Assembly (NCBI GenBank): GCA_000990585.1 | Contig: LBQD01000001.1 | Location: 207,276 to 271,275, forward strand | DNA: 64,000 nucleotides | Reading direction: 5' to 3' | Origin: Candidatus Moranbacteria bacterium GW2011_GWE2_35_2- | GTDB taxonomy: Bacteria > Patescibacteriota > Minisyncoccia > Moranbacterales > UBA9337 | In this document: positions 10,235 to 63,280 of the stretch, one piece after another | Layout of the letters: every line of letters begins with the position of its first letter | Position numbering within the stretch: the first letter of the stretch is position 1 | The notes under the pieces: model-generated | The model's database searches: none | What the model was told of the DNA's origin: nothing | Seen by the model: only the letters and a program-made list of their open reading frames with translations | Program-made: the position numbers and the translations under genes

Positions 10235-12136
10235 TTATTTCTCCATTTTATTCTTACTGATTAAATTTCGTATCTCTTTCAAATCTACGTTTGGTTTTTT
10301 TCTGAGATTTTTGAATTTTTTTGGCGCAACATTTTGCAGTTGTGAAAGTTTTACAGGAATTCCGGAAGGAACATATATCGCCGGTTCAATTTTATTCTGA
10401 AACGGTTGAGTTTCTTCCGGTTCTTTTTTTGGAACAACCTTTTCCGCTTCCTTCTGTTTAGCTTTTGCTATCGTTCGCTGATAATCTTTAAGACAATCTT
10501 TGCAAAAAGTCGGTCTTTTTCCATCCGGCTTGAATGGAACCTTCACATTCGTTTCACAAGTGGCGCATTTGGCATCATACAAAACACGCTCAACATTACC
10601 ATCCTCAACATTTTGAGACTCAACTCTTTTTTCCGAAATCAAAACTTTATCCTGCGAGCGAGACTGAGATTGAACTTGCGTCGCCTGAGGTCGCAATTGC
10701 GGTTGTGGTTGTTGCCGTCGCGAAGAAACTTGCGGTCGAACAGATGGTTTTTCCCCGGACGCATTGTCTTTCTGATAACTTTTTCGAGTATTTTGACTGT
10801 CATTTTGATAATCATCATCTCCTCCATCAAAACTCACGCCACTATCAATAACCATTCCGCTCCAACGCGCAATCTTTTCTTCCACCTCTTTTTTATTACT
10901 ACCATACCTTTCTCTTGAATTGCGAATAATCTTTTCGAAATTTTTTTCCGTTTCCTTAATTTCCACCGGTGGCAATGTCGTCGCTGAAAAAGCATCTCCC
11001 GCTACTCCATCAATCATCAGCTTTAAATAAACATGATACTTTGGAAGATTAATGATATCATTAGCCATGAAAACTGGCTCAAATTCTTTTTCTAATTGCT
11101 CGGCATCTTCGGCTCCCACTCGAAAAGCAATAATTGTTCCAACGTTTCCAAAAACCGCATCACGCACCGTTGCATTGCCATCAATAACCAGCTGACTAAT
11201 GTATTGATGTGCCAAAGTAAGACTCAACCGATATTTCCGAGCCTCAGACAAAATACTAGCGAAAGATTCAGTTGCAAAATTTTGAAATTCATCCACGTGC
11301 AAATAAAAATCTTTTCTTTCGTCTTCCGGAATATCGACGCGTCCCATTACTCCCAATTGAATTTTTGTCACAATCATTCCACCCAAAAGACGCATCGCAT
11401 CTTCTCCGATTCTTCCCTTGGAAAGATTAACAATCAAGATTTTCTTGTTATCCATAATCTCCCGCATATCAATGGTAGATTTTGGTTGACCGACAATGTG
11501 CCGAATCACTGACGAAGAAAGAAATTGACCAACTTTATTTTGAATTGCCGCTACCGCTTCCTTTCTGAATCGATCCTCCCATTTGTCAAACTCATTAATC
11601 CAAAAAGATTTTACTACCGGATCTTTAATTTTCACATAAACCCTCTTCCGATAATCTTTGTCAGACATCATACGGCTTACTCCAAGCATTGTCGATCCGG
11701 GATAATCCAAAAGCGCCAAAATAGTATTATTCAGAATATATTCCATTCGAGGACTCCATACATCTGGCCAGATTTTTTTGAATACTCCCATCATACCGGA
11801 AGCTACTAGGTTTTTTTTATCTTCATCCACCGCCTCTAAAATATTAAAAGCAATTGGATATTCCGCATCTGACGGATTGAGATAAATCACATCGTTGATT
11901 CTTTCCGCCGGAACAGCCTTTAAAATTTTTTCCGCCGTATCTCCGTGCGGATCAATATATGCAACTCCGTGTCCATTGCGAATATCTTGAATCACCAAAT
12001 GCTCCAATAAATTGGTTTTTCCCATACCGGTTTTTCCAATCACATAAATATGTCTCCGTCGATCGTCGGTCTTAATTCCAAATTCCGTTTCGCGATTACG
12101 AAAATTTGTTTTAGCAAAAAAAGTTATATCGGACAT
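10235..12136 (-). CDS. P-loop ATPase of the TraG/VirD4 coupling-protein / HerA-DUF87 type, with a C-terminal Q/S/R-rich low-complexity tail and a C4 zinc ribbon
   Basis: Walker A IGKTGMGKT near the N-terminus. AYIDPHGD resembles the DPHGE/DPKGE box. Walker B FYLHVDEFQNF. RKYRLSLTLAHQYISQL resembles the TraG-D_C Qs.sQL motif. Tail QQPQPQLRPQATQVQSQSRSQ followed by CATCETNVKVPFKPDGKRPTFCKDC. No N-terminal TM domain. Confidence 0.65.
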   Translation of the reverse strand: MSDITFFAKTNFRNRETEFGIKTDDRRRHIYVIGKTGMGKTNLLEHLVIQDIRNGHGVAYIDPHGDTAEKILKAVPAERINDVIYLNPSDAEYPIAFNILEAVDEDKKNLVASGMMGVFKKIWPDVWSPRMEYILNNTILALLDYPGSTMLGVSRMMSDKDYRKRVYVKIKDPVVKSFWINEFDKWEDRFRKEAVAAIQNKVGQFLSSSVIRHIVGQPKSTIDMREIMDNKKILIVNLSKGRIGEDAMRLLGGMIVTKIQLGVMGRVDIPEDERKDFYLHVDEFQNFATESFASILSEARKYRLSLTLAHQYISQLVIDGNATVRDAVFGNVGTIIAFRVGAEDAEQLEKEFEPVFMANDIINLPKYHVYLKLMIDGVAGDAFSATTLPPVEIKETEKNFEKIIRNSRERYGSNKKEVEEKIARWSGMVIDSGVSFDGGDDDYQNDSQNTRKSYQKDNASGEKPSVRPQVSSRRQQPQPQLRPQATQVQSQSRSQDKVLISEKRVESQNVEDGNVERVLYDAKCATCETNVKVPFKPDGKRPTFCKDCLKDYQRTIAKAKQKEAEKVVPKKEPEETQPFQNKIEPAIYVPSGIPVKLSQLQNVAPKKFKNLRKKPNVDLKEIRNLISKNKMEK

Positions 12137-22536: not shown

Positions 22537-23124
22537 TTAATCTTCCGTAATAATCCCTGAAAATGCAGCTCGACAATTAGCTCTAATTGAAACAGCATTA
22601 TATAAAGTTCCGACAGCGATATTCACTATACGACATCCGGCATGAGTACAGCAAAAAAGATTGCTATCGTCAGAAAATCCATCATTGTTTTTATCCTCAA
22701 TAATAGATACAACAAATCTACCAAGGGAATATTGCGATCCGACATATCCAGTATATCTATAGCCATGAGTTGATATATCAGGCCAATCGTATGCTAAATC
22801 TTCCGTATTATTATTAGTAGCATTTCCACAAAGAGAAGTTCCTGCAACCGGAATAGCTAAGTTCCCTCCTCCGCAATCATTACTACTAAGATGAACATCA
22901 AGATTTCCCTGGCAACGAACACCAAGATTCTGTGTCACGCATTCTACAAGAGCCGCTTGTGCGGATCGCAATGTAGCATATGCCACTTTTTGCCTTGCTT
23001 TGTCCCTAGCGCTATTCAAACTAACTAAAATAACGCTCGCTAAAATTCCAATAATTGCAATAACAATCAAAAGTTCGATTAATGTGAATGCTTTTTTGTT
23101 TTTTGTTTTTATTTTATTTTCCAT
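22537..23124 (-). CDS. Type IV pilin-like protein (prepilin N-terminal cleavage/methylation domain)
   Basis: KKAFTLIELLIVIAIIGILASV class III signal sequence. Cys pairs in the C-terminal region. Confidence 0.75.
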   Translation of the reverse strand: MENKIKTKNKKAFTLIELLIVIAIIGILASVILVSLNSARDKARQKVAYATLRSAQAALVECVTQNLGVRCQGNLDVHLSSNDCGGGNLAIPVAGTSLCGNATNNNTEDLAYDWPDISTHGYRYTGYVGSQYSLGRFVVSIIEDKNNDGFSDDSNLFCCTHAGCRIVNIAVGTLYNAVSIRANCRAAFSGIITED

Positions 23125-23206: not shown

Positions 23207-23245
23207 TTTGCAAACAAAAAAGGAGCGGGGTTTCTTGTTTGCAAA
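23207..23245 (-). terminator. Putative terminator hairpin downstream of the 23284..23820 gene
   Basis: 11-bp inverted repeat tttgcaaacaa / ttgtttgcaaa with a 17-nt spacer. Followed on the minus strand by a T/A-rich tract. Confidence 0.35.
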
Positions 23246-23283
23246 AATCTGCAAAACATTAAAAACCACACTCCTTCCAAAAT

Positions 23284-23820
23284 CTATTTTTTTCGGCGGC
23301 GGCGACATGCCGCAATTCCGCCTAACCCTGCACTAAGCAACCAAAATGCGCTTGGCACAGGCGTTGGTAATGGCTTTGGAATTAGCGTCTTTGACGCTAA
23401 TTCCACGTTGTCAATGTCTCCTGTCGCCCAAAACGACAGGAAAAACATCGACTCCTCCATATCCCACCCAGGAGGTGGGACTGCCGGTTGGAACGAATTC
23501 GTTCCAACCGAAAAAACTCCTCTTTTTGTATCCGCCCAAACCTCAATCTCCCCATCCGGGGACATTGAGGTAAAAGATTTGAGGGTAAAAGCGCCTCCAT
23601 CGAGGCGCTCTATTCCTACCCAACACCCTACATGGAGGTACCCCTCCTCCATAATCACATCCTCTGGTGCATCCAGAGGTGAGAAAACCCAGTAACCATC
23701 CGTTGTCAATGGCAGCTCTTCGCTGCCATCAAAACCAATGGTAGTCGCCGCCATACTCTGGCCGAAAAAAGAAAATACAGCAACGACAGAAAAAACAACA
23801 ATAATAATCGACTTTTTCAT
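23284..23820 (-). CDS. Secreted protein with a PEP-CTERM-like C-terminal sorting signal
   Basis: N-terminal signal peptide MKKSIIIVVFSVVAVFSFFGQSMA. C-terminus PLPTPVPSAFWLLSAGLGGIAACRRRRKK: a Pro-rich motif, then a hydrophobic helix, then an Arg/Lys tail. The gene is visibly GC-richer than its neighbours. Confidence 0.55.
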   Translation of the reverse strand: MKKSIIIVVFSVVAVFSFFGQSMAATTIGFDGSEELPLTTDGYWVFSPLDAPEDVIMEEGYLHVGCWVGIERLDGGAFTLKSFTSMSPDGEIEVWADTKRGVFSVGTNSFQPAVPPPGWDMEESMFFLSFWATGDIDNVELASKTLIPKPLPTPVPSAFWLLSAGLGGIAACRRRRKK

Positions 23821-23962
23821 TTTTCTCTCCTCCGGGAGGGCGTAAACCCTCCTCTTTCTTTTCTTTTTTTAAAACAACATTTGCGCGCCCGCCGGGCACG
23901 CCCTTTCCATTTAGCGTAAGCATTGCATAAAATTTTATTTCTGTCAAGCCTACTTTTTGGAT

Positions 23963-24958: not shown

Positions 24959-26203
24959 ATGCGAACATTCAATTTTCCAAATATAAAACACAAAAAAACA
25001 ATCCTCGCTCTCGGAGCCGAATCCGCCGGCAATTTTTCAGTTTTCCAAAACGAAATTATCTATTTTTCCCAAAATTTCAACGATCTTCTCGATGAAGAAA
25101 ATTTCAAAAATTACAAAAAAGAATTGCGTGATTTTCTGCAAAATAACAATATAAAGCCAAATATAATTCTCACTGACCTACATCCGGATTTCAAAACCAC
25201 GCAATTAGGAATCGAACTTTCTAAAAAATACAAAGCTAAACACATCCAAATTCAACACCATCTCGCCCATATATACTCACAAATTTCCAATTTCCAATTT
25301 CCAATTTCCAAACAATTTTCAAATTCCAATGTTCAAATTCCAAATTTATTTTATGGAATCGCGCTGGATGGCACCGGATATGGCACTGATGGAAAAATTT
25401 GGGGCGGAGAGGTGTTTTACCTGCAACCTTACAACCTACAACCCATTAGAATCGGACATATTGAGAATCAAATTATGATTGGCAGGGAGTTGGCAATTCG
25501 CGAACCAGCGAGAATGCTAATATCCGTTCTGGATAAATTTTCAAACAAAAAAGAAATTTATAATTTTATCAAAAAACATTATTCCCGCAATGAATTTGAA
25601 CTTTTGCACAATCAACTCCGGCAAAATTTCAACTGCATAGAAACTTCCAGTTGCGGAAGAGTTTTTGATGCAGTTTCTGTTCTTTTGGGATTTTGCGGAA
25701 ATGAAAGAAGTTTCAAACACAAAGCTTCACACTTATTGAAAAAAAATTCCACTACTCCTTACAAAGATCTGAAGCCGAAAATAATTGTCAAAAAACAAGC
25801 CGTAAGAAGCAAAAAACAAAAAATATTCAATAATCAATATATAATAGTCAATGAATATACGAAATATATTCTAAATACAACCCATCTTTTTAAATATTTA
25901 ATTAAAAACTTACATAAAAACAAAAAACGGCTCGCTGCTACCGCGCAATTATACATCGCCCAAGGACTAAAAAAGATAATCGAAAAACACATAGAACACA
26001 ACATAAAACATAAAACAAAGGATGTTGTTTTATCGGGAGGTTTGAGCAAAAATAAAATAATTTTAAACTATTTTAAAAACAAAAAATCCGAGAAATTTTC
26101 GGACAATAAACTGCAAAATGCAATTCCTCGTGACGATGCAGGAATTAGTTTTGGACAAATAATTTATTACTTGAAAAATTCAAATCCTAAAACTTCCAAG
26201 TAA
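24959..26203 (+). CDS. HypF-like carbamoyltransferase, Kae1-like C-terminal domain only
   Basis: LALGAESAGNFSVFQN, TDLHPDFKTTQ and IQHHLAHIYS match the HypF Kae1-domain motifs (ALGAE, DLHPDY.ST, VQHHHAH). Acylphosphatase, Zn-finger and YrdC domains are absent. Contains a heptamer repeat insertion. Confidence 0.6.
   Translation: MRTFNFPNIKHKKTILALGAESAGNFSVFQNEIIYFSQNFNDLLDEENFKNYKKELRDFLQNNNIKPNIILTDLHPDFKTTQLGIELSKKYKAKHIQIQHHLAHIYSQISNFQFPISKQFSNSNVQIPNLFYGIALDGTGYGTDGKIWGGEVFYLQPYNLQPIRIGHIENQIMIGRELAIREPARMLISVLDKFSNKKEIYNFIKKHYSRNEFELLHNQLRQNFNCIETSSCGRVFDAVSVLLGFCGNERSFKHKASHLLKKNSTTPYKDLKPKIIVKKQAVRSKKQKIFNNQYIIVNEYTKYILNTTHLFKYLIKNLHKNKKRLAATAQLYIAQGLKKIIEKHIEHNIKHKTKDVVLSGGLSKNKIILNYFKNKKSEKFSDNKLQNAIPRDDAGISFGQIIYYLKNSNPKTSK
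25284..25311. repeat. (TTTCCAA)x4 heptanucleotide microsatellite inside the hypF-like gene, followed by degenerate copies to about 25345
   Basis: Four exact tandem copies. Reverse complement of the prmC repeat unit TTGGAAA. Encodes SNFQFPISKQ. Confidence 0.8.
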
Positions 26204-48565: not shown

Positions 48566-49942
48566 TCACTTTGCCTGGTCGTACAGATCCCAGATCAACC
48601 AGGTTAATGTATCCTTTGCGTGAACGCAGAATCCCTCATCGATCTCCCAGATACTACCATTATTCAGATCAGCATTGTGAGGACAACCGCCTCCGCAAAT
48701 CGTCAACGCTTTGCAGTCGTAACACTTAGGCATGTTGAGAGGAGATCGTCTACTCCACTCTTTCCAGAACGGATGCTCGAATGGATCAAAATCGGAGTCC
48801 GGATTGACGAAGAACTCCCCTGTGCCACTATATGCATGACACACACCAATCCTCCCATTCGGGAGAATCACGACCTGCTTTCCGCATCCGCAACAGTCAC
48901 GGTCGTAGATTGTTCCATCAACGAACGCCCTCACTTTGCGCATCATTCGCGCTTCATAGATTCCTCTTTCTCGCGCGATCTTAAAGCACTCAATCATCGC
49001 CTGTGCTACCTTACTGGAATAACTTGGATCGTTGATTTTGTACTGGTGACTATTGAGCAAGGGATTAAACCCAACATTACACACTCCCGCACCATCCAGA
49101 AACCAATTGAAAATGGCCGGAAGTTCTTCGACATTTTTTTCACTAACCGTGCAAGAAATGCACGTTTTTGCCCCGACCTCCTTGAGAATTGCTACTCCTC
49201 GCATAACATCATCAAAAGTTCCTCTATTATTCCCGCCTCGCCACACGCGACAAGCGTCATGCACAGACCGATATCCATCCAGAGAAACATCCACCTCGAT
49301 ATTATGCTTTGCGCAGAAAGTGGCAATTTCTCGAGTTATCAAGGATCCATTGGTATTGATATTCATCGCCAGGTTTTTTGGCAACACGCCTGACTCCTTG
49401 AGAGTTTCCACTTCCTCAACAGTGGCAAAAAATATGTCGACGTTAATAAGAGGCTCTCCTCCGTAAAAAACGACGCTCGATTCATACGGATAAAAGTCGC
49501 TATACCCACAGGCCTTTTTGAAAAAACCTGCGAACTGCCTCACTGCGGAGATAGCCATCTTTTTCGTCATGTTCATTATCTTTTCTTTCGGACCACTGTA
49601 AGATCCTTCGAAAAAACAATAGGTACAAGCGAAATTACAGCTATTCGTCAAAAGTAAATACAGTGTGTCGATACACGGATGCTGAAGGATTGATTTCTGA
49701 AGTACTTCCAGATCTTCTTTTTCATCAGCATCGCTGGACACCACAAGCTTCTTCTGAATCAAGTAGTCCATCGTTTCATCGTTGATATCCGAAAAAGATA
49801 CGTGAGATAAACGATTACGGATGTTTGTAAGATCAGCGTTATTCACGAAGATAACTTCCCGCGATAAGGCATGAAAAATTGCCGTAATGCCACCTCTTTC
49901 GAAAAAGTGCACGAAATTAGAAAACCTCAGCGCATCCTTCAT
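48566..49942 (-). CDS. Radical SAM / SPASM-domain peptide maturase (sactipeptide/ranthipeptide/SCIFF-maturase-like)
   Basis: CNFACTYC (CxxxCxxC) about 100 aa from the N-terminus, leaving room for an RRE-like domain. C-terminal SPASM cysteines CCGCGKQVVILPNGRIGVCHAY and CYDCKALTICGGGCPH. Start set at the ATG (49942) preceded by SD aagggagga. The ORF track uses an in-frame ATG 48 nt further upstream. Confidence 0.85.
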   Translation of the reverse strand: MKDALRFSNFVHFFERGGITAIFHALSREVIFVNNADLTNIRNRLSHVSFSDINDETMDYLIQKKLVVSSDADEKEDLEVLQKSILQHPCIDTLYLLLTNSCNFACTYCFFEGSYSGPKEKIMNMTKKMAISAVRQFAGFFKKACGYSDFYPYESSVVFYGGEPLINVDIFFATVEEVETLKESGVLPKNLAMNINTNGSLITREIATFCAKHNIEVDVSLDGYRSVHDACRVWRGGNNRGTFDDVMRGVAILKEVGAKTCISCTVSEKNVEELPAIFNWFLDGAGVCNVGFNPLLNSHQYKINDPSYSSKVAQAMIECFKIARERGIYEARMMRKVRAFVDGTIYDRDCCGCGKQVVILPNGRIGVCHAYSGTGEFFVNPDSDFDPFEHPFWKEWSRRSPLNMPKCYDCKALTICGGGCPHNADLNNGSIWEIDEGFCVHAKDTLTWLIWDLYDQAK

Positions 49943-50003
49943 TTCAATCCTCCCTTTATATAAGTTGAGGGGAATACGAATCGATCGCATCCCCCTCGGT
50001 TTC

Positions 50004-50281: not shown

Positions 50282-51535
50282 TTACTTTCTCAAAAATCTA
50301 TAAACAATAAACAGGAGTGCTAATGAAGATAAAATCAGAATTGATGACAGTAAATATGGAATCCTTTCCGAAATTGGTTTTTTTGGAACTTCCTTTGGAA
50401 TAAAACTTTGATTTTCTTTTTGCGCCGACAATCCAATTAATTTCGCATTTTCAACATCCAGATATTGAAAATATTTTTCAATATCATATTGCGGATATTC
50501 AGCTTCCTTGTTTCCATAATATATCCGATATTTCTCACTTCCACTGGCTTGAAAAATTACCTCCCGATAAACCGAATAAGCGGTAATACTTATAAAATTC
50601 AAAGATTCATTATCTTTATTCAAAACCTCCAACTTTATATATCGATCAGTAATTTCCGGGAAATTCAATTCTGAATTTTCTCCGGAAAATTTTGCAGTCT
50701 CATAATTAAATATATAGTCTTGCGCAACCTTTTTTAAATTATCCAAATTATTTCCGGAATAAATTATAACTCCGCGGTTAAAATTAGAACCTTCCGCTCT
50801 CAAGTCCAAACGGTTAACCGGAATACCGGACACTCCCAAATCGGCAATAATTTCTGTTGATTTTCGCTGACTATTGTCTTGAACGCTAAAGCTTACTTTC
50901 CTTTTTAATTCTTGCATTTTTTGTTTGACGGAATGCTTTGCCCGAGCGGAAGTCGCCCTAACCGGACTCTCTCCTTGACCGGCAATTTCCACCTTCAAAT
51001 AACGAAAACTTACTTCTTCCGAAAATTGAATTGTGTTATTGGAAGCCTTAAAGTTGCCTTTCACATCCGTATAATCATAAATATAGGCATTGTCTTTGAT
51101 AACATTCCAATTTTTCATATCACTGCTTCCATAGACAATCACGCTTCTTTGATAATTTTGAGAATCTGTAGTTAAAATCAGACCGTTAGTTAGTTTTCCA
51201 TCAACACCCAGATCCAAAATAACTGAAGAATATTGATCGGCAACATATGAATTATCAATCATTTTAACAGAATAAGTTTCATCAGTTATTCCGGAATTTC
51301 CCGAAAAAAGCTTGAATGGAACTTCCCTGTTTGCATTTTCCATAATCCGAATATCGCTAAAATTTTCATTAGACTGAGAAAATATTTCGTCATCAAATCC
51401 CACTTTAATCAAGCCATTTTCTGTATCGCTAAATTCCACGTCCTTGTAATATGTCCATTCGGAAATATTAAACGCTCCGTGTGCTACTAATGGAAAAATA
51501 GAGAGAAACATTCCTGTGATTAATATTTTTTTCAT
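50282..51535 (-). CDS. Secreted protein with two internally repeated domains and a C-terminal TM anchor (possibly DUF3999-like)
   Basis: Signal peptide MKKILITGMFLSIFPLVAHGA at the canonical ATG (51535). Internal duplication (YQRSVIVYGSSDMKNWNVI and FNRGVIIYSGNNLDNLKKV). C-terminal hydrophobic plus basic tail. Confidence 0.45.
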   Translation of the reverse strand: MKKILITGMFLSIFPLVAHGAFNISEWTYYKDVEFSDTENGLIKVGFDDEIFSQSNENFSDIRIMENANREVPFKLFSGNSGITDETYSVKMIDNSYVADQYSSVILDLGVDGKLTNGLILTTDSQNYQRSVIVYGSSDMKNWNVIKDNAYIYDYTDVKGNFKASNNTIQFSEEVSFRYLKVEIAGQGESPVRATSARAKHSVKQKMQELKRKVSFSVQDNSQRKSTEIIADLGVSGIPVNRLDLRAEGSNFNRGVIIYSGNNLDNLKKVAQDYIFNYETAKFSGENSELNFPEITDRYIKLEVLNKDNESLNFISITAYSVYREVIFQASGSEKYRIYYGNKEAEYPQYDIEKYFQYLDVENAKLIGLSAQKENQSFIPKEVPKKPISERIPYLLSSILILSSLALLFIVYRFLRK

Positions 51536-51603
51536 AATTATTATTTGTTGTTGCAAAACCCGTGCGCCTTTCAAACCACCAGACGAGTGAATCCTGCGCT
51601 ACG

Positions 51604-53565
51604 TTAAATTATTTCTTTTATCTTATCCTTGTATCGGTTGTAAGCAAATGAAATTCCCAAGAGAATTACACCGAGCGTCATTGAAGAGATTATTCGATAC
51701 AAAGTCCCCAAACTCCACAAATCTACAAAGAAAAGTTTTAAAATAGCCAGGAATAACAAAATTAATCCGCCTACTCTTACTCCCTTGCGTCCTCGCGTCA
51801 TACCGACTGCTACTAAAATTATTCCATACAAAAGCCAGAAAATCGACAAAATTACACTATTCCTGCTTTGCAGACCCTTGATCTTAGTGTGATCATATTT
51901 TGCGATAGCGACAGTGCTGGCAGAATTTAACGCATTGCCCTGAACACGATCATTTTCAATGGCAACCCGAGATTCTTCCCGCACTTGATCTATTTTATTC
52001 TGATAATAATTATTTATCTCGCGACTGCCGGTGAAAATAGTCAAAAAATTAGCCACAATAAACATCAGGATTGCAATCTGCTTCGCTGCCAAGAAACTTT
52101 CAGGTTTTTCCTTTTCCTCATCACTTGAGATTACAGAAAACAAAAATGCTGCCGCGTAAGAAATCACGATTGCAAAAAGAGCGGTAAAGAAAAATTTATT
52201 TGCCAAAACAGAATGTGAAGAATAAAACACATCTATCATAAAAATTCTGAAAATTGCCAGTCCGAAAATCAACAAGCCGAAAGATTTAATAATCACCTGC
52301 TCCTTATTTTTGACTGCAATCAGGAATAATAAAATAGCCTCAATCAACCATCCGCTGGTTATTGCCACTCCCTGAAACTGGATAGGAATTACCAATGTAG
52401 CAAAACCTATCGTGAGAAAAGCCAGAAATCCATATAGTTTATCATCTTCCGGAGTTAAATATTTCACCAAATAAGCCCACGAGAAGTAATATATTCCCAA
52501 AATCAAAGCAAAAAATCCCATAAATGAATGATGCTGTCCATTCATCAGACTATAACTGGCGATAAAATAAGTTGTTCCCGATAGAAGTAATAAAATCTGT
52601 TCAACTGCCTCCGATTTTTCCTGCCGTACGATATTGTAAATCAATGAGGATATTGTGTAGATGAAAAAAAACAAAGTCAGGAAAAACATCGTACTTCCCA
52701 ATTGAGCTTGCGTGTAAAAACTCGCACCCCAAACAAAGAAAAGAATTCCGGTTCCGGCAAAACCGATAAAATTAAGCGCTCTCCATTTTCGAAAAAATGA
52801 AATCACCAAAATCGCCACATCCAAAATAAAAATATAAAAAAACAATGAGAATTGATTATTCTGACCCGTTGAAATCAAGAGCGGAGTAGAAAAACCGCCC
52901 AAAATAGCAACAGTCATCAGGGAAATAGCATTGTATCTGAGACTAAGAACAATGCCCACGGCAGTAACCAAAATCATTCCGAAAAAGGATGCAATCGGAC
53001 CAAGCAAGCTATAAAAATCAAAGGCTGCAAAAACAGAAAGGTATAAAATCGCAATTCCGCCCCCGGTTATTATTTGACCGTAAGAAAAATATTTTCGAAT
53101 ATATTTTTCTCCCGCGACCAGCAAAGACATTCCGATCATAATTCCCATTAAAACTCTCCCTGTTTCTCCAATCCAATTATTATCAAAAGCATATTTAAGG
53201 AGAAAAGAAACCCCCAAAACCAAAGCAGTGATGCCGATTCTAGCAAACCATTTTCCTCCAATATTTCCCTCTAAATCACTTTCCTCTTTGGAAGCGGACT
53301 CTTCCTGGAGAGTTATTCGCTCATCACTTGATTCCGCTGATACTTGCTTAATAGGTTGCGACACTTCTTCAGTCGGAGAAGGCGGGGTCGGCGCAAAAGA
53401 AGCACTCTCTTTTTCCTGGGCAACATCGACAAAATTACTTCCGGCATTAAGTCGCGATTCCAGAAGAGAGATCCTTTGATCTTGTTTCTCAACCACACTG
53501 CCAATTTCATCCAATTTAGTTAATATTTTTTCATAAATCTCCTTTTCCCCGTTTGAATTCTCCAT
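51604..53565 (-). CDS. Multi-pass membrane protein with an N-terminal coiled-coil region (DUF2339-like)
   Basis: 653 aa. Hydrophilic N-terminal ~90 residues, then more than 12 hydrophobic helices. Confidence 0.45.
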   Translation of the reverse strand: MENSNGEKEIYEKILTKLDEIGSVVEKQDQRISLLESRLNAGSNFVDVAQEKESASFAPTPPSPTEEVSQPIKQVSAESSDERITLQEESASKEESDLEGNIGGKWFARIGITALVLGVSFLLKYAFDNNWIGETGRVLMGIMIGMSLLVAGEKYIRKYFSYGQIITGGGIAILYLSVFAAFDFYSLLGPIASFFGMILVTAVGIVLSLRYNAISLMTVAILGGFSTPLLISTGQNNQFSLFFYIFILDVAILVISFFRKWRALNFIGFAGTGILFFVWGASFYTQAQLGSTMFFLTLFFFIYTISSLIYNIVRQEKSEAVEQILLLLSGTTYFIASYSLMNGQHHSFMGFFALILGIYYFSWAYLVKYLTPEDDKLYGFLAFLTIGFATLVIPIQFQGVAITSGWLIEAILLFLIAVKNKEQVIIKSFGLLIFGLAIFRIFMIDVFYSSHSVLANKFFFTALFAIVISYAAAFLFSVISSDEEKEKPESFLAAKQIAILMFIVANFLTIFTGSREINNYYQNKIDQVREESRVAIENDRVQGNALNSASTVAIAKYDHTKIKGLQSRNSVILSIFWLLYGIILVAVGMTRGRKGVRVGGLILLFLAILKLFFVDLWSLGTLYRIISSMTLGVILLGISFAYNRYKDKIKEII

Positions 53566-59728: not shown

Positions 59729-62700
59729 TTAATAAAATATCTTGATTGATCCTTTTTCCGTCTGCAGATATGGAACAGTCAGTCCTGGAATTTTTTGCGT
59801 TTTCTTTCCGTTTTCCCATATCCGTGTTTCATTTCTGTTGGAAAAATAGAACGACCGGACAAAATCACTTCCGTTTGTCAAATGCGCATTGAGAATTTGA
59901 AATTTGTTTTTCTTCCAATCAAAATTCCAATGGCATTGGAACAAAGAATTTGAGACATCGGTTTTGACTCCGTCATACGAAATCGAATCAATCTCACTGT
60001 AAACGATATTGCTATTTCCGCGATTTTTTTCTTTGATGTCAATAATCGTACTGTGTCCGGCTTTATCAATCAAGACCGCGATCAAAGTGCTGTTTTTTTC
60101 TTTTTCGCGATTTGCTTGCAAAAAGCGGTTCAAGATATCTTTTGCCCTGTCCCTCAATGGAGGCTTCTGAATCCGCTCTTTCATCCTGACTGAAACATCT
60201 CCGGACAGATTGTCTATTCCGAAAACTTCCAGTTTCTTGGAATCAGGATTAAAAAATATTTTTCCCTCCGGAGCAGTTTTGTCCATTTTCACTTCTATTT
60301 CTTTTACGTCCTCTTCATTTCCCGCCGTGTCAGTTGAAAAATATCGGACATTGAAAATCCCTTCGCCGGAAATTTCAATCGGATTTTCATACACTTCCCA
60401 ACTTGCTCCGCCATCCAGAGAATATTGGGTTTTTTCAATTTCGTTTTCTCCGTCTTCAGCCGAAAACGAAACAGCAACATTTCCAACAAACCAACCGGCA
60501 AGACCCTGCTCTCCTTGCGCGCTGGCAAAAGTTTGCGGAGGATTGCTATCCGGCATCACTCCCACTTCAACAATCGGCTCCGCCTGATAATCCTGCTGTC
60601 CATCGCCATCAATATCCACCTGCAAAACCGGCATTTCCATCAATCCTTGCTCGGAAATTTCCAAAACCGCCGTTGTTTCTTCCGTAGTCGGCAAATTGGC
60701 AAAAACAATCGCGGAAACCGTTTCCTCCCCGCCGGAAATCGGTTGTGCTTCTTCCACTTTCAAAGTATATGTCCCCGCTCCATATCCTTCCAGCTCAACT
60801 CGAACATTTTCTCCGGATCCAAATCCAACATATTTGCGTTCCCCGAATTGGTAATAATAGCTATTGGAAATTCCTTCCTCGAAAACTTCGTATTCTTGTC
60901 CGCCAACTTGAATTTTTTTCGGTCCGGTGTGATTTCCCTTTTCATCATACAAATGAATGTCCAACGGGGAATGCAATGACATTCGCAATCGCGAAGAGGC
61001 ATTTTCGTAATCATCCGGGCGAGAATCTTTGATATATTTCGGCAAATCACCGGATTTATTTGCAATAATATTTGAGATAAATTCCTGTAAATTATCAACT
61101 TCTAAAATATTCTTATGTCCTCTATCAATCGTAATTCCCTTATTATATTCAAACAAATCCACCCAATACCTTTTTACATTATCATTTTCAGGAATCATCA
61201 AGGCGCTAGGTGCGACAACTGTCTTGTCTCCGTCAACCGTAAATTGCGGCTGGTACGTCGGTGCGTATTCCCCGCTTTTCACACAAGAAGGAACTTTTCC
61301 TCCTGTCGGAAAACAATCATATTTTTCCCGCTCTGAATATTTAACCCCGCTTATGGTGTCCAATCCCCAGCCGGCGATTTGAATCGCTTCGACATTTTCC
61401 GGAGGAATCCACGAATCCAAACGCTTGTGCATTTCCGTCGCTTCATCCAAAAGATTTTCCCGCAAAGTATTTTCCCAATCCACTTCACTGTTTTCCGGCT
61501 CTTGGCGACCGTCGCCATCGCCGGTCAAAAAATCTTTCCATTCGTCAAAATCATCAATGTCATCGCCATAGGCATCTTTGAAGCTTTTGTAGCGGGTATT
61601 TTCCGAAGAAAAAGAAACAAAGGGATTTTCAATTCGATCAAAATATTCTTCCGATGGCAAAAGCCCATAGGCTCCCGGCATATTTTCCGCCAACGTTCGA
61701 GCATCTTCCTGGGAAATCAAAGTACCCGCAAGCGCCGGCTCGTCATAACCATACAACATCGCCAAAAGCGCCACCGGGGTTCCTATTTGCGGAGTTGCGA
61801 CAAAAATTATTTTGTCAATTTTGTCCGTCGCGCCACTTTTTTCCAATTCCATCATCAAAGATTTCGCCAAAAGTCCGCCATTGGAATGGGCGACGATTGT
61901 CACTTTTTCGTTTTTTGACGATTCCGCCAATTCCTCAATTTGCTCAAGCGCCGATTTCATTTCCTCTTCCGGATACAACGTTCCGCTTTGGGCAATATCT
62001 TCGACACTCTGCCTCCAATCATAGGCAAAAGACCGAAAATCATTGATGATATTTTCAGATTTCAAGCCGTCTAATTTTTCCAAAAATGTTTTGTAAATGT
62101 TTCCGCCAATCACCGGAATCGCCACTTCATCCAAAATATCCCTTGTGTACACATCTTCAATGCTTTTTCCATCTTCATCCATTCGCAATTCCTCCATATC
62201 ATCGCCAAAATAATTGGGAATCCAAAGCTTATCTTCGCTTCCCAGCATCCCTTCTTTGTACAGCCGGCTGGATTTTATTCCGGGAAGGAAAAGTACATTG
62301 GAAGTGCAAGTCTTACAAATAAATTTTTCCGCGCTCCAATCAATCAAAGTAAAATCCCCGATCAATTTTTCCCCGCCGGAAGAAAAATCCGGCGCCAAAG
62401 CTGGACCGTCTGGACTGCCGTACCAGTTGTTTTCCAAGCGAACCAGATTTTTGTCCCTGCCCAAAATCTCGGAATATTCCGAATAATTCAATGCGGTGGA
62501 AATAAGCGCAGTATTTTGACCATTTCCAAAAAAATTACTGTCGGAAACTTGCAGGAAACTTTTTTCTTCATTGGGATATGATTCAATATACGTTTCGATG
62601 TCCGCATAAAGATTGTTTTTAAATGTGGAGTTTTTAATATCCAGCCTCCCGGAAACAAATTTGAGCGCAGAATTTTTCACTTCTCCGTCATCAGAAACCG

Positions 62701-63280
62701 GAAAACTTTGCGCCTTGGCAATATTGGAAGAAAAAATATTTCCCCAATTTTCGGTCATTATTATTGGCGAAGAGGAAAAACACTCATCAGGAAAATCATT
62801 CCAGTTGTAATATGTTCCCAATTCCACAAAATCGACATAATGAAGTATCGAAGAATCCGCGCCTGCCAAAAAAGATCTGTCGTTAAATTCTATCATTCCT
62901 CGGCTCGGCGCAAAACATTCATCATCAAAAAAAGAAGGATCAACCGGCGGAGAAGTGAAAGTGATTCTTTCCTGTTCTGTTCCCTCCGCGACAATTCTTC
63001 CATAATAAACAGCAAGGCTTTCTCCAAGAATTATTCTCGTTCCTTTCTCAATTGTGAGTGTGGCACCTCCGACTACAACTACCGGAAGCTCGATGGAAAG
63101 ATCCACCTCTCCGCTCCAAACAACATCTTCGTCGATTACATAATAGTTTTCATAATCCAGCCACTCGCCTTCCTCCGAACTTGCGGTAATACTCGCCGAA
63201 TAATGATAATGCGATAAATTAAACCCTACCGGAGAAAATACCATCAAGAAAACAAGAATACTAACGCTGATTTTTTTCAT
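59729..63280 (-). CDS. Giant secreted protein (1183 aa) with an LCAT/PGAP1-like alpha/beta-hydrolase (lipase/acyltransferase) domain
   Basis: Signal peptide MKKISVSILVFLMVFSPVGF. FAYDWRQS (the LCAT-family YDWR motif) and the nucleophile elbow TIVAHSNGGLLAK (GxSxG-like). Long flanking beta-rich regions. Confidence 0.55.
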   Translation of the reverse strand: MKKISVSILVFLMVFSPVGFNLSHYHYSASITASSEEGEWLDYENYYVIDEDVVWSGEVDLSIELPVVVVGGATLTIEKGTRIILGESLAVYYGRIVAEGTEQERITFTSPPVDPSFFDDECFAPSRGMIEFNDRSFLAGADSSILHYVDFVELGTYYNWNDFPDECFSSSPIIMTENWGNIFSSNIAKAQSFPVSDDGEVKNSALKFVSGRLDIKNSTFKNNLYADIETYIESYPNEEKSFLQVSDSNFFGNGQNTALISTALNYSEYSEILGRDKNLVRLENNWYGSPDGPALAPDFSSGGEKLIGDFTLIDWSAEKFICKTCTSNVLFLPGIKSSRLYKEGMLGSEDKLWIPNYFGDDMEELRMDEDGKSIEDVYTRDILDEVAIPVIGGNIYKTFLEKLDGLKSENIINDFRSFAYDWRQSVEDIAQSGTLYPEEEMKSALEQIEELAESSKNEKVTIVAHSNGGLLAKSLMMELEKSGATDKIDKIIFVATPQIGTPVALLAMLYGYDEPALAGTLISQEDARTLAENMPGAYGLLPSEEYFDRIENPFVSFSSENTRYKSFKDAYGDDIDDFDEWKDFLTGDGDGRQEPENSEVDWENTLRENLLDEATEMHKRLDSWIPPENVEAIQIAGWGLDTISGVKYSEREKYDCFPTGGKVPSCVKSGEYAPTYQPQFTVDGDKTVVAPSALMIPENDNVKRYWVDLFEYNKGITIDRGHKNILEVDNLQEFISNIIANKSGDLPKYIKDSRPDDYENASSRLRMSLHSPLDIHLYDEKGNHTGPKKIQVGGQEYEVFEEGISNSYYYQFGERKYVGFGSGENVRVELEGYGAGTYTLKVEEAQPISGGEETVSAIVFANLPTTEETTAVLEISEQGLMEMPVLQVDIDGDGQQDYQAEPIVEVGVMPDSNPPQTFASAQGEQGLAGWFVGNVAVSFSAEDGENEIEKTQYSLDGGASWEVYENPIEISGEGIFNVRYFSTDTAGNEEDVKEIEVKMDKTAPEGKIFFNPDSKKLEVFGIDNLSGDVSVRMKERIQKPPLRDRAKDILNRFLQANREKEKNSTLIAVLIDKAGHSTIIDIKEKNRGNSNIVYSEIDSISYDGVKTDVSNSLFQCHWNFDWKKNKFQILNAHLTNGSDFVRSFYFSNRNETRIWENGKKTQKIPGLTVPYLQTEKGSIKIFY

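What the first reader, a model, noticed from the sequence alone, without database searches (positions are those of the whole stretch)
23284..23960. GC-rich gene encoding a secreted protein with a PEP-CTERM-like sorting tail, in an organism context where exosortase systems are unexpected
The C-terminus is PLPTPVPSAFWLLSAGLGGIAACRRRRKK: a Pro-rich motif, a hydrophobic helix, then a poly-Arg/Lys tail. This is the architecture of exosortase or archaeosortase substrates (PEP-CTERM, VPXXXP-CTERM).

The gene and its 5-prime region are markedly GC-richer than their surroundings. They sit next to the type IV pilin gene. No exosortase gene is visible in this window. The protein is either horizontally acquired cargo or the substrate of a sortase encoded elsewhere.
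Basis: partly seen in the sequence, partly recalled or inferred. Interest (0 to 1): 0.6.

Follow-up and report, generated by a model that had tools for sequence, protein, structure and literature searches.

The report
Swappable exosortase-tailed surface protein gene
A tiny groundwater bacterium (Candidatus Moranbacteria, one of the ultra-small 'CPR' bacteria) carries next to its pilin gene a small secreted protein with a real exosortase-type sorting tail, on a self-contained cassette that related strains swap for very different versions and whose message is packed with hairpins; whether the cell has the enzyme that reads the tail could not be checked.

Summary
ORF 23284-23820 (-) encodes a 178-aa protein with a signal peptide, a beta-rich ectodomain, a Pro-rich linker and a C-terminal motif-helix-Arg/Lys tail. 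The tail passes NCBIfam VPLPA-CTERM (27.0 vs 25.35 bits) and PEP_CTERM (16.2 vs 16).

The genome is Candidatus Moranbacteria GW2011_GWE2_35_2-. At least 24 independently assembled contigs carry the gene in the same context, so it is not chimeric.

"Foreign GC-rich cargo" is poorly supported:
- The family has six full-length members plus one fragment; those whose genomic context could be read lie in Moranbacteria-type loci.
- Amino-acid composition alone predicts GC 0.45 against 0.49 observed. The remaining synonymous excess lies in predicted stems.

New findings:
- The gene is a ~730-bp cassette of promoter, two-hairpin leader, CDS and terminator, in a variable slot.
- Neighbouring genes are 90-98% identical between strains, while this protein is 47% identical.
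- Two contigs with identical flanks carry mosaic alleles whose synonymous sites are about half different or saturated. The tail stays 96% identical (dN/dS 0.02).
- All six coding sequences fold far better than synonymous-codon shuffles (z -3.2 to -11.1).

No exosortase lies in the 84 kb I could inspect of a roughly 790-kb genome, so processing of the tail remains inferred.

The parts
23942..23947 (-). -35 box TTGACA of the cassette promoter. The -10 is at 23919-23924 (AATGCT), preceded by an extended TGn at 23925-23927, with a 17-nt spacer.
   Evidence: Read from the sequence. TTGACA sits at the same place in L007, L014, L096 and L008, and upstream of the unrelated PEP-CTERM gene of L055. The consensus scan did not list it because the -10 is weak. 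Promoter function is inferred.
23883..23901 (-). Leader hairpin 1 (GCGTGCCC-GGC-GGGCGCGC) followed by a U-rich run. It is either a 5' stabiliser or an attenuator.
   Evidence: The terminator-like scan found it. Individual folds of five leaders all show a GC-rich hairpin at this position, with different stem sequences. It is also present in L096 and L008, which lack the upstream exonuclease gene, so it belongs to the cassette.
23834..23853 (-). Leader hairpin 2 (GGAGGG-UUUACG-CCCUCC), which abuts the Shine-Dalgarno sequence GGAGGAG (23827-23833).
   Evidence: The stem differs between alleles (GGAGGC/GCCUCC in L014, GGGGG/CCCCC in L008, GGGGA/UCCCC in L096) but the position is kept. A role in translation control is inferred.
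23746..23820 (-). Signal peptide, aa 1-25 (MKKSIIIVVFSVVAVFSFFGQSMA|A).
   Evidence: Read directly from the translation. All six family members start MKK/MKR followed by a hydrophobic run. No signal-peptide predictor was available.
23407..23745 (-). Variable beta-rich ectodomain, aa 26-138.
   Evidence: Pairwise identity between alleles is 31-59%, with dS saturated. The mosaic breakpoints lie here. AlphaFold with a 9-sequence alignment predicts mostly strands but with low confidence (pLDDT 57.7). Foldseek against PDB gave no significant match.
23371..23406 (-). Conserved linker VELASKTLIPKP (aa 139-150). It is encoded by a 13-bp perfect palindrome (23377-23405).
   Evidence: The stem is kept in six of seven alleles through G-U and double changes (helix 7). 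L007 and L098 are 12/12 identical in amino acids here at pS 0.52.
23287..23370 (-). C-terminal sorting domain, aa 151-178: Pro motif (TPVPSA), hydrophobic helix (FWLLSAGLGGIAAC) and basic cluster (RRRRKK).
   Evidence: TIGR03370 scores 27.0 bits against 25.35 and TIGR02595 16.2 against 16. Sister alleles read VPLPGA, VPIPGA or VPVPAA followed by WLLGAG...RR(K/R)R. dN/dS is 0.02 between L007 and L098.
23485..23510 (-). 26-nt perfect palindrome CGGTTGGAACGAATTCGTTCCAACCG inside the CDS (motif SVGTNSFQP). It is one of six strong CDS hairpins; the others are at 23709-23729, 23588-23611, 23540-23571, 23417-23443 and 23377-23405.
   Evidence: The gene has 6 hairpins, against a mean of 0.3 (maximum 3) in 200 codon shuffles. 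This hairpin is kept in 6 of 7 alleles (helix 2).
23215..23274 (-). Long imperfect terminator hairpin (GGAGTGTGGTTT...AAACCCCGCTCC) followed by a T-run, marking the 3' end of the cassette.
   Evidence: It appears in the fold of the whole cassette. It is conserved in L007, L098 and L096, and at 79% over 73 nt in L008, which has an unrelated genomic background.
22537..23124 (-). Type IV pilin gene, the other occupant of the variable exo|hydS slot.
   Evidence: TIGR02532 scores 32.4 bits. The slot holds the cassette plus a pilin (window, L007), the cassette alone (L014, L101), two pilins (L015) or nothing (L016).

Best explanation
**What it is.** The gene encodes a small cell-surface protein of a Moranbacteria-restricted family. 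The protein uses a sorting signal of the PEP-CTERM / VPLPA-CTERM (exosortase-substrate) class.

**How it most likely works**
- (Inferred) The signal peptide takes the protein through Sec.
- (Inferred from architecture) The C-terminal helix and Arg/Lys cluster stop transfer. The ~115-residue beta-rich ectodomain then sits outside on a conserved Pro-rich stalk.
- (Inferred) The VPxP(G/S/A)A motif at the membrane face is read by an exosortase-family enzyme encoded elsewhere in the genome. That enzyme would cleave the tail and hand the protein to a surface acceptor, as archaeosortase ArtA does in single-membrane archaea. The grounds are the protein-level conservation of the tail; I could not test it.

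**The cassette.** The gene is a self-contained ~730-bp expression cassette: TTGACA promoter, two leader hairpins, strong SD, CDS and long terminator. It sits in a variable surface-protein slot beside the pilin gene.

**How it varies.** Old, deeply diverged alleles are exchanged between strains by homologous recombination (shown). This is the pattern expected for a surface protein under frequency-dependent selection from hosts or phages (inferred).

**Why it is GC-rich.**
- Mostly the Gly/Ala/Pro/Trp/Arg-rich protein.
- Also an unusually dense set of stems in the leader and coding region.
- Not foreign base composition.

I think the stems most likely act at the mRNA level, for stability or translation control of an abundant envelope protein.
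For: **Sorting signal**
- Curated HMM cut-offs are passed.
- Four of the five other family members examined score 24-27 bits on TIGR03370; P0014 scores 18.9.
- NCBI already names P0014 'VPLPA-CTERM sorting domain-containing protein [Candidatus Moranbacteria]'.

**Tail under selection**
- L007 and L098 have 100% identical flanks.
- Within the tail, 51% of synonymous sites differ while 27 of 28 residues are identical (dN/dS 0.02). The linker is 12/12 identical at pS 0.52.

**Native family**
- An exhaustive HMMER scan of 1.84 billion representatives and a profile search of 5.8 billion proteins found only six full-length members.
- Three lie in the same exo|hydS slot.

**Cassette**
- The leader and terminator architecture is shared by alleles in three different genomic contexts.

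**Allele exchange**
- Neighbouring genes are 90-98% identical in amino acids while this protein is 47% identical.
- The L098 allele is a mosaic. Its ends match L007. Its centre is 75-87% identical in nucleotides to L014, whose flanks are only 35-50% identical.
- dS is saturated in the ectodomain.

**GC content**
- Expected GC from the protein with host codon usage is 0.45.
- GC3 is 0.30 at unpaired positions and 0.55 at paired positions.

**Structure**
- The whole cassette folds with z -12.7.
- All six CDSs beat synonymous-codon shuffles (z -3.2 to -11.1), while five control genes give 0.0 to -2.2.
- In the consensus structure, 89.9% of cells are paired across seven alleles, against 34-54% when partners are slid.

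**Second case**
- An unrelated Moranbacteria protein (L055 2553-3131) has a classical PEP-CTERM tail (TIGR02595, 27 bits).
- It has a similar leader layout.
Against: - No exosortase was seen in the window, in 10 kb beyond each end, or in about 50 Moranbacteria loci. This covers only about 84 kb of a ~790-kb genome, and XrtD is a distant probe.
- Only one tail-bearing protein lies in the 64 kb. Working exosortase systems usually have several substrates.
- The window allele has the weakest motif of the family (TPVPSA rather than VPLPGA). Pfam's own threshold is missed by 0.4 bits.
- Tail conservation could partly reflect its use as a recombination anchor, or RNA stems within it (helices 8 and 9).
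- The GC3 comparison between paired and unpaired positions is partly circular, because folding algorithms prefer G-C pairs.
- The covariation evidence rests on seven related sequences and on a structure predicted from those same sequences.
- Sense-versus-antisense stability does not separate RNA-level from DNA-level structure here. Every minus-strand gene in the window shows the same asymmetry.
- The ectodomain fold and the ligand are unknown.
Confidence: 0.55

Rival explanations
1. Tail anchor only. The signal is an evolutionary hand-me-down from an exosortase-bearing donor. These bacteria have no exosortase, and the helix plus Arg/Lys cluster simply keeps the ectodomain tethered to the single membrane.
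For: - No exosortase was found in any sequence I could inspect.
- Only one substrate lies in the window.
- CPR genomes are small and reduced (established knowledge).
- Distant full-length relatives with the same tail exist in a proteobacterium that has LpxC, BamD and OmpA (P0008, 29% identity). Ancient import is therefore plausible.
Against: - A generic anchor needs only hydrophobicity and charge.
- Here the VPxPGA-WLLGAG...RR(K/R)R pattern is kept across alleles with saturated synonymous divergence (dN/dS 0.02-0.3).
- A second, unrelated Moranbacteria protein carries a PEP-CTERM tail that scores well above threshold.
Confidence: 0.35
2. Recent horizontally acquired GC-rich cargo. The gene came in recently from a GC-richer organism and has not yet ameliorated.
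For: - GC is 0.49 against 0.36 for the window.
- Presence is patchy in the clade: absent from L015 and L016.
- The cassette also occurs in unrelated contexts (L096, L008).
Against: - No close homologue exists outside the six-member family in two very large protein searches.
- All alleles keep the same native-looking leader and terminator.
- Composition is explained by the amino acids and the stems.
- The alleles are anciently diverged from each other within the clade.
- The family was not found on viral contigs.
Confidence: 0.07
3. Targeted hypermutation, by a diversity-generating retroelement or palindrome-templated template switching, creates the variation in situ.
For: - The contrast between gene and flanks is extreme.
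- The palindromes differ in position between alleles.
- In the window allele, one arm (TSMSP) replaces the family consensus DGRSP and is the reverse complement of the conserved GEIEV arm.
Against: - Synonymous sites are as diverged as non-synonymous ones or more so (dN/dS 0.1-0.36).
- Variation spans the whole gene rather than a defined variable repeat.
- There is no second copy or template in the window.
- The exact protein shows no micro-variants in 17 or more contigs.
- The L098 mosaic is explained by recombination with an L014-type allele.
Confidence: 0.03

Closest known systems
VPLPA-CTERM proteins and their exosortase XrtD (NCBIfam TIGR03370; for example the Jannaschia sp. CCS1 plasmid p1 locus, L099)
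   Same: - Same extreme C-terminal layout: V-P-x-P-(A/G)-A motif, helix, Arg-rich end.
- The window protein and three sister alleles (P0004, P0015, P0016) pass the curated cut-off; P0002 and P0014 score below it.
- Small secreted proteins with N-terminal signal peptides.
   Different: - In Jannaschia, xrtD lies 2.6 kb from the substrate, inside a glycosyltransferase cluster. Here no XrtD homologue lies within 84 kb.
- The host is a CPR bacterium rather than a Rhodobacterales diderm.
- The window allele's motif is degenerate (TPVPSA).
PEP-CTERM / exosortase (EpsH, XrtA) system (TIGR02595, PF07589)
   Same: - Tripartite C-terminal signal.
- Marginal pass of TIGR02595.
- A short ectodomain ending in a '...DN(L/I/V)' strand just before the tail, as in many small PEP-CTERM proteins such as P0018.
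   Different: - No Pro-Glu-Pro motif.
- Pfam threshold just missed.
- No outer membrane.
- No PrsK/PrsR or EPS locus seen next to the gene.
Archaeosortase ArtA / PGF-CTERM (S-layer glycoprotein lipid anchoring in archaea)
   Same: A working precedent (from the literature, my recollection) for this enzyme family acting in cells with a single membrane and an S-layer-type envelope, which is what CPR cells are thought to have.
   Different: No PGF, VPXXXP or other archaeal CTERM model matched. No archaeosortase was seen.
Recombination-exchanged surface-antigen loci (pilin, flagellin, O-antigen and capsule allele replacement)
   Same: - Conserved flanks, deeply diverged alleles and mosaic recombinants.
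- Presence/absence polymorphism in one slot.
   Different: - The unit is a single ~730-bp promoter-to-terminator cassette.
- No silent donor copies were seen in the window.
E. coli lpp mRNA (a small abundant envelope protein whose long-lived message was reported to fold into many stable hairpins; recalled from Nakamura et al. 1980, not re-read here)
   Same: A small envelope protein whose message is unusually rich in stable local hairpins across the coding region.
   Different: Here the excess is shown against synonymous-codon shuffles and is shared by alleles only 38-57% identical in protein to the window allele. No half-life data exist.

Membership tests
Exosortase substrates, VPLPA-CTERM type (TIGR03370) | HMM score at or above the curated cut-off, with the match at the extreme C-terminus | tested here: met
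   27.0 bits against 25.35, residues 154-177 of 178. Sister alleles score 26.6, 26.2, 25.5, 24.1 and 18.9 bits.
Exosortase substrates, VPLPA-CTERM type (TIGR03370) | V-P-L-P-A-type motif directly before the hydrophobic helix | tested here: inconclusive
   The window allele reads TPVPSAF. The sister alleles read VPLPGA, VPIPGA and VPVPAA.
Exosortase substrates, VPLPA-CTERM type (TIGR03370) | Cognate exosortase (XrtD or another Xrt) in the same genome | not testable with these tools
   Only about 84 kb of a ~790-kb genome could be read. There is no Pfam or NCBIfam exosortase hit there and no phmmer hit to Jannaschia XrtD.
Exosortase substrates, VPLPA-CTERM type (TIGR03370) | Several substrates per genome sharing the tail | not testable with these tools
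   There is one in the 64-kb window. L008 has the cassette leader repeated after the gene, which hints at tandem copies in that organism.
PEP-CTERM (TIGR02595 / PF07589) | HMM thresholds | tested here: inconclusive
   TIGR02595 scores 16.2 against 16, a pass. PF07589 scores 20.3 against 20.7, a fail.
PEP-CTERM (TIGR02595 / PF07589) | Pro-Glu-Pro motif | tested here: not met
   No PEP motif in any of the six alleles.
PEP-CTERM (TIGR02595 / PF07589) | N-terminal signal peptide | tested here: met
   MKK followed by a hydrophobic run and SMA|A, read from the translation. All alleles share this. No predictor was run.
Archaeosortase substrates (VPXXXP-CTERM, PGF-CTERM and others) | Match to the corresponding CTERM model | tested here: not met
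   None of these models appears among the NCBIfam hits at E<=10.
Sortase substrates (LPXTG) | LPXTG-type pentapeptide before the helix | tested here: not met
   The conserved motif is VPxP(G/A)A and has no T-G. A separate sortase and a PVTGS-tailed protein exist in L055.
Diversity-generating retroelement target | Template repeat and reverse transcriptase nearby, with variation confined to a variable repeat | tested here: not met
   No second copy exists in the window. Divergence spans the whole gene with saturated dS.

The most novel reading that the evidence does not exclude
Ultra-small CPR bacteria, which have a single membrane, run an exosortase-type protein-sorting pathway of their own. 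Its substrates would be small, hypervariable surface proteins kept beside the pilin gene and used in attachment to hosts or in evasion of phages. They would be delivered as swappable promoter-to-terminator cassettes. The hairpin-saturated messages would be a distinct device, either for mRNA longevity or for survival and recombination of incoming single-stranded DNA during natural transformation.
Probability: 0.3. Interest if true: 0.75.

Novelty: new variant of a known kind. Interest (0 to 1): 0.55.

Why it matters
- **Surface biology of CPR bacteria.** They make up a large share of bacterial diversity and live attached to other cells, yet how they display and vary their surface proteins is almost unknown. 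An exosortase-class signal under strong purifying selection in Moranbacteria would extend this sorting system to single-membrane bacteria. It also points to a concrete, testable candidate for host or phage interaction next to the pilin gene.
- **Composition is not origin.** The cassette shows that a compositional island need not be foreign DNA. Here amino-acid content and selected stems account for it.
- **A coding sequence with a second constraint.** All known alleles are far more structured than their own synonymous recodings. This is an unusually clean case of a second layer of constraint on a coding sequence.

Tried and rejected
- **Chimeric assembly.** Rejected. At least 24 independent contigs carry the gene in identical context.
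- **Word-indexed homologue search with the single protein.** It found only the protein itself. The family appeared only with the exhaustive HMMER scan and the profile search.
- **Structure.**
  - The single-sequence AlphaFold model was useless (pLDDT 35.6).
  - The 9-sequence alignment gave pLDDT 57.7.
  - Foldseek against PDB gave nothing significant (best E 0.09, TM below 0.3).
- **Finding an exosortase.**
  - The Desulfosarcina plasmid region had none.
  - The Jannaschia plasmid gave an XrtD seed.
  - phmmer with that seed hit nothing in the window or in any fetched locus.
  - The contig of the tail look-alike P0005 had none.
  - Ten kb beyond each window end had none.
  - I ran no further search on XrtD.
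- **Sense versus antisense folding as a test of RNA-level selection.** Rejected as uninformative. All minus-strand genes fold better in sense because of strand composition.
- **Joint alignment of the leaders.** MAFFT cannot align stems that differ in sequence, so RNAalifold found little. Individual folds show the shared architecture.
- **More alleles.**
  - The metagenome scan added only an identical fragment and an L014-like fragment.
  - The viral-contig scan found none.
- **Other structured or repeated elements.**
  - No Rfam family and no tRNA lie in the window.
  - A silent donor copy in the window was looked for and not found.
- **Literature.** No paper in the held library links exosortase, archaeosortase or PEP-CTERM with CPR bacteria as carriers.
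Full report
**1. What is there**

The minus-strand ORF 23284..23820 encodes 178 residues. It comprises:
- an N-terminal signal-peptide-like segment (MKKSIIIVVFSVVAVFSFFGQSMA|A);
- an acidic, Gly/Ser/Thr/Pro-rich ectodomain of about 113 residues;
- a linker, VELASKTLIPKP;
- the tail, LPTPVPSAFWLLSAGLGGIAACRRRRKK.

The tail scores as follows against curated family models:

| Model | Score (bits) | Cut-off (bits) | Result |
|---|---|---|---|
| NCBIfam TIGR03370 VPLPA-CTERM | 27.0 | 25.35 | pass |
| NCBIfam TIGR02595 PEP_CTERM | 16.2 | 16 | marginal pass |
| Pfam PF07589 | 20.3 | 20.7 | just misses |

No archaeal CTERM model (VPXXXP, PGF) appears among the hits.

The gene has GC 0.490 and GC3 0.469, in a window of GC 0.360 where typical genes have GC3 near 0.31. 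The next gene downstream is a type IV pilin.

**2. Source and assembly**

The exact protein is 'hypothetical protein UR69_C0001G0241' of Candidatus Moranbacteria bacterium GW2011_GWE2_35_2-. This is a Rifle-aquifer member of the Candidate Phyla Radiation, and the longest contig is 788 kb.

At least 24 contigs from independent NCBI, JGI and ENA assemblies carry the protein. All have the same order: MurJ, HypF-like, exonuclease, this gene, pilin, hydrogenase small and large subunits. Chimerism is excluded.

**3. Is there an exosortase?**

None is visible in what I could read.
- The multi-pass membrane ORFs of the window are a histidine kinase, MurJ, a GT4 phosphotransferase, a GT2 synthase and a DUF2339 protein. 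Four small proteins have no family hit.
- I obtained a bona fide XrtD from the Jannaschia sp. CCS1 plasmid. There it lies 2.6 kb from a VPLPA-CTERM protein, inside a glycosyltransferase cluster.
- phmmer with this XrtD found nothing at E<=10 among all six-frame ORFs of the window and of every fetched locus. These include about 50 Moranbacteria loci of roughly 12 kb each.
- Ten kb beyond each end of the window also lacks any exosortase Pfam hit.

This covers about 84 kb of a ~790-kb genome. The whole-genome census, which is the decisive test, could not be run with these tools.

**4. The family**

A word-indexed search with the single protein found only the protein itself. An exhaustive HMMER scan of 1.84 billion representatives and a profile search of 5.8 billion proteins found six full-length members:

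| Protein | Locus | Identity to window protein | Genomic context |
|---|---|---|---|
| P0001 | window | – | exo\|hydS slot, with pilin |
| P0002 | L007 | 47% | same slot, with pilin |
| P0015 | L098 | 55% | same flanks as L007 |
| P0014 | L014 | 53% | same slot, no pilin |
| P0016 | L096 | 46% | beside signal peptidase I, HisRS ... FtsA, FtsZ |
| P0004 | L008 | 34-38% | 1.15-kb Rifle contig of GC ~0.44 |

- NCBI already names P0014 'VPLPA-CTERM sorting domain-containing protein [Candidatus Moranbacteria]'.
- A metagenome scan added one L014-like fragment (L101). Viral contigs hold none.
- The nearest outsiders are tail-centred or weak full-length matches. One example is P0008 (29% identity), from a GC 0.67 diderm with LpxC, BamD and OmpA.

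The family is tiny. As far as context shows, it belongs to Moranbacteria.

**5. A variable slot and swapped alleles**

Window versus L007:

| Protein | Amino-acid identity |
|---|---|
| exonuclease | 90% |
| pilin | 94% |
| hydrogenase small subunit | 98% |
| hydrogenase large subunit | 96% |
| this protein | 47% |

Among GTDB species representatives with the same synteny, the slot between the exonuclease and the hydrogenase holds different contents:
- the cassette plus a pilin (window, L007);
- the cassette alone (L014);
- two pilins (L015);
- nothing (L016), where the pilin promoter and start codon are fused onto the hydrogenase start.

L007 and L098 have 100% identical flanks on both sides. 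Their genes are only 39-60% identical in nucleotides in the centre. The centre of L098 is 75-87% identical to L014, whose flanks are 35-50% identical. That is a recombinant mosaic.

Nei-Gojobori counts:
- Synonymous sites are saturated in the ectodomain, with dN/dS of 0.1-0.36. The alleles are therefore old, not freshly hypermutated.
- In the tail, L007 and L098 differ at 51% of synonymous sites but at 1 of 28 residues (dN/dS 0.02).
- In the linker they differ at 52% of synonymous sites and at 0 of 12 residues.

The tail is thus held by protein-level selection far more tightly than a generic hydrophobic anchor would require. I read this as indirect evidence that something recognises it.

**6. 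The cassette**

All alleles share one layout, including L096 and L008, which sit in unrelated contexts:
- TTGACA;
- a GC-rich hairpin followed by a U/A-rich run;
- a second hairpin whose 3' arm (CCUCC-like) abuts a strong Shine-Dalgarno sequence;
- AUG AAA AA;
- the CDS.

All but L014 also share the long imperfect terminator hairpin.

The stems differ in sequence between alleles while their positions are kept. The first hairpin is present where no exonuclease gene lies upstream. It therefore belongs to the cassette and is not that gene's terminator.

In L008 the leader is repeated after the gene at the contig end, which suggests tandem copies there.

**7. Why it is GC-rich**

- Recoding the protein with the genome's own codon usage predicts GC 0.45, against 0.49 observed and 0.36 for the genome.
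- At predicted unpaired third positions GC3 is 0.30, the genome's value. At paired third positions it is 0.55. The caveat is that folding algorithms favour G-C pairs.
- Composition therefore does not argue for a foreign origin.

**8. An exceptionally structured message**

- The window CDS contains six strong local hairpins, against a mean of 0.3 and a maximum of 3 in 200 codon shuffles.
  - One is a 26-nt perfect palindrome at SVGTNSFQP.
  - Another is a 13-bp perfect stem at ELASKTLIP.
- The whole cassette folds to -324 kcal/mol against -232 +/- 7 for dinucleotide shuffles (z -12.7). The neighbouring pilin gene gives z -0.8.
- Against shuffles that keep the protein and the codon usage, all six alleles are more stable: z -11.1, -5.2, -6.0, -3.6, -3.2 and -3.3. 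Five control genes give -0.3, -1.1, -2.2, -2.0 and 0.0.
- In a seven-allele alignment of the 3' half, a consensus of 54 pairs is formed in 89.9% of cells, against 34-54% when partners are slid.
  - 11 pairs change on both sides.
  - The covariation score is above all 500 shuffles.
  - The sample is small and the structure was predicted from the same sequences.
- Many one-sided changes are to G-U pairs, which fits RNA better than DNA. However, a sense-versus-antisense comparison proved uninformative.

I favour an mRNA-level role, either stability or translation control of an abundant envelope protein. A role for single-stranded DNA hairpins during uptake and recombination is not excluded. Natural competence has been shown for a CPR bacterium (PMC10187176, seen).

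**9. A second case**

Another Moranbacteria genome (L055) has an unrelated 192-aa secreted protein between recG and comEC.
- Its tail is a classical PEP-CTERM one (PVPEPATMLLF...RRRRKQ; TIGR02595 27 bits against 16).
- Its GC is 0.50 in a locus of 0.39.
- Its leader has a similar TTGACA, hairpin and U/A-run layout.

NCBI names it a PEP-CTERM protein. One of its distant full-length relatives (P0027, 29% identity) lies in a cluster of four PEP-CTERM genes in genome GCA_000621145.1, whose organism I did not identify. Exosortase-class tails therefore recur in this CPR lineage.

**10. Verdict**

- The tail is a true member of the exosortase-substrate signal class by sequence.
- 'Foreign GC-rich cargo' is not supported.
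- The thing is best described as a Moranbacteria-specific, recombination-swapped surface-protein cassette with a conserved sorting tail and a hairpin-dense message.
- Whether the tail is processed by an exosortase in these single-membrane cells is the open question. I put that at roughly even odds.

Noticed in passing
L055:2553-3131: An unrelated 192-aa secreted protein in another Moranbacteria genome carries a classical PEP-CTERM tail (TIGR02595, 27 bits). Its GC is 0.50 in a locus of 0.39, and its leader has a similar layout. One of its distant full-length relatives (P0027, L104) lies in a cluster of four PEP-CTERM genes in genome GCA_000621145.1, whose organism I did not identify.
   Followed up: partly
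L055:9133-12110: A 632-aa surface protein ends PVTGSGG, then a helix, then a basic tail, and is followed by a sortase-like gene (TLVTCWP motif). Moranbacteria therefore also have a sortase-type anchoring pathway, distinct from the tail studied here.
   Followed up: no
L008:400-440 and 1110-1153: The cassette leader (CGTGGCGTCCGATGAAGGAGCGCGGTCATTTGAAAAAAA) recurs immediately downstream of the gene, at the contig end. This suggests tandem paralogous cassettes in that organism and explains the assembly break.
   Followed up: no
L016:6744-6860: This is the empty form of the slot. The cassette is absent and the pilin gene is deleted. The pilin promoter and start codon (ATGGAAAACAAAAAG...) are left fused in an A-rich microhomology to the start of the hydrogenase small-subunit gene.
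   Followed up: partly
window 23540-23571: In the window allele, the hairpin arm encoding TSMSP replaces the family consensus DGRSP. That arm is the reverse complement of the arm encoding the conserved GEIEV. A template-switch event that perfected a quasi-palindrome would produce this pattern.
   Followed up: partly
window 48566-49990: A second GC-rich gene (GC 0.446, GC3 0.484) encodes a radical SAM protein. Its first 600 nt fold only mildly better than synonymous shuffles (z -2.2).
   Followed up: partly
window 10235-12136: A 633-aa protein has TrwB/TraG-type coupling-protein and DUF87 domains (Pfam listing). It is a possible part of the type IV secretion machinery recently described for Patescibacteria.
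   Followed up: no
window 50282-53565: A DUF3999 protein with an F5/8 type C domain sits next to a 16-TM DUF2339 protein. This is a conserved pair of unknown function.
   Followed up: no
L003:9224-9719; L002 and L004:17785-19129: In some assemblies of the same population, the exonuclease gene beside the cassette is split into two short ORFs and dnaB is split in two. These are either strain-level pseudogenes or assembly errors.
   Followed up: no
window 59729-63280 and L103:3952-9821: A 1183-aa secreted protein has LCAT/PGAP1-type lipase domains. Just beyond the window end it is followed by an island holding an Eco57I-type restriction enzyme, RadC, an antitoxin and RhuM-like genes.
   Followed up: no
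window 24959-26203: A HypF-like protein of 414 aa has only the C-terminal HypF domains. It lies beside the [NiFe]-hydrogenase and hypA genes, so the maturation set looks reduced.
   Followed up: no
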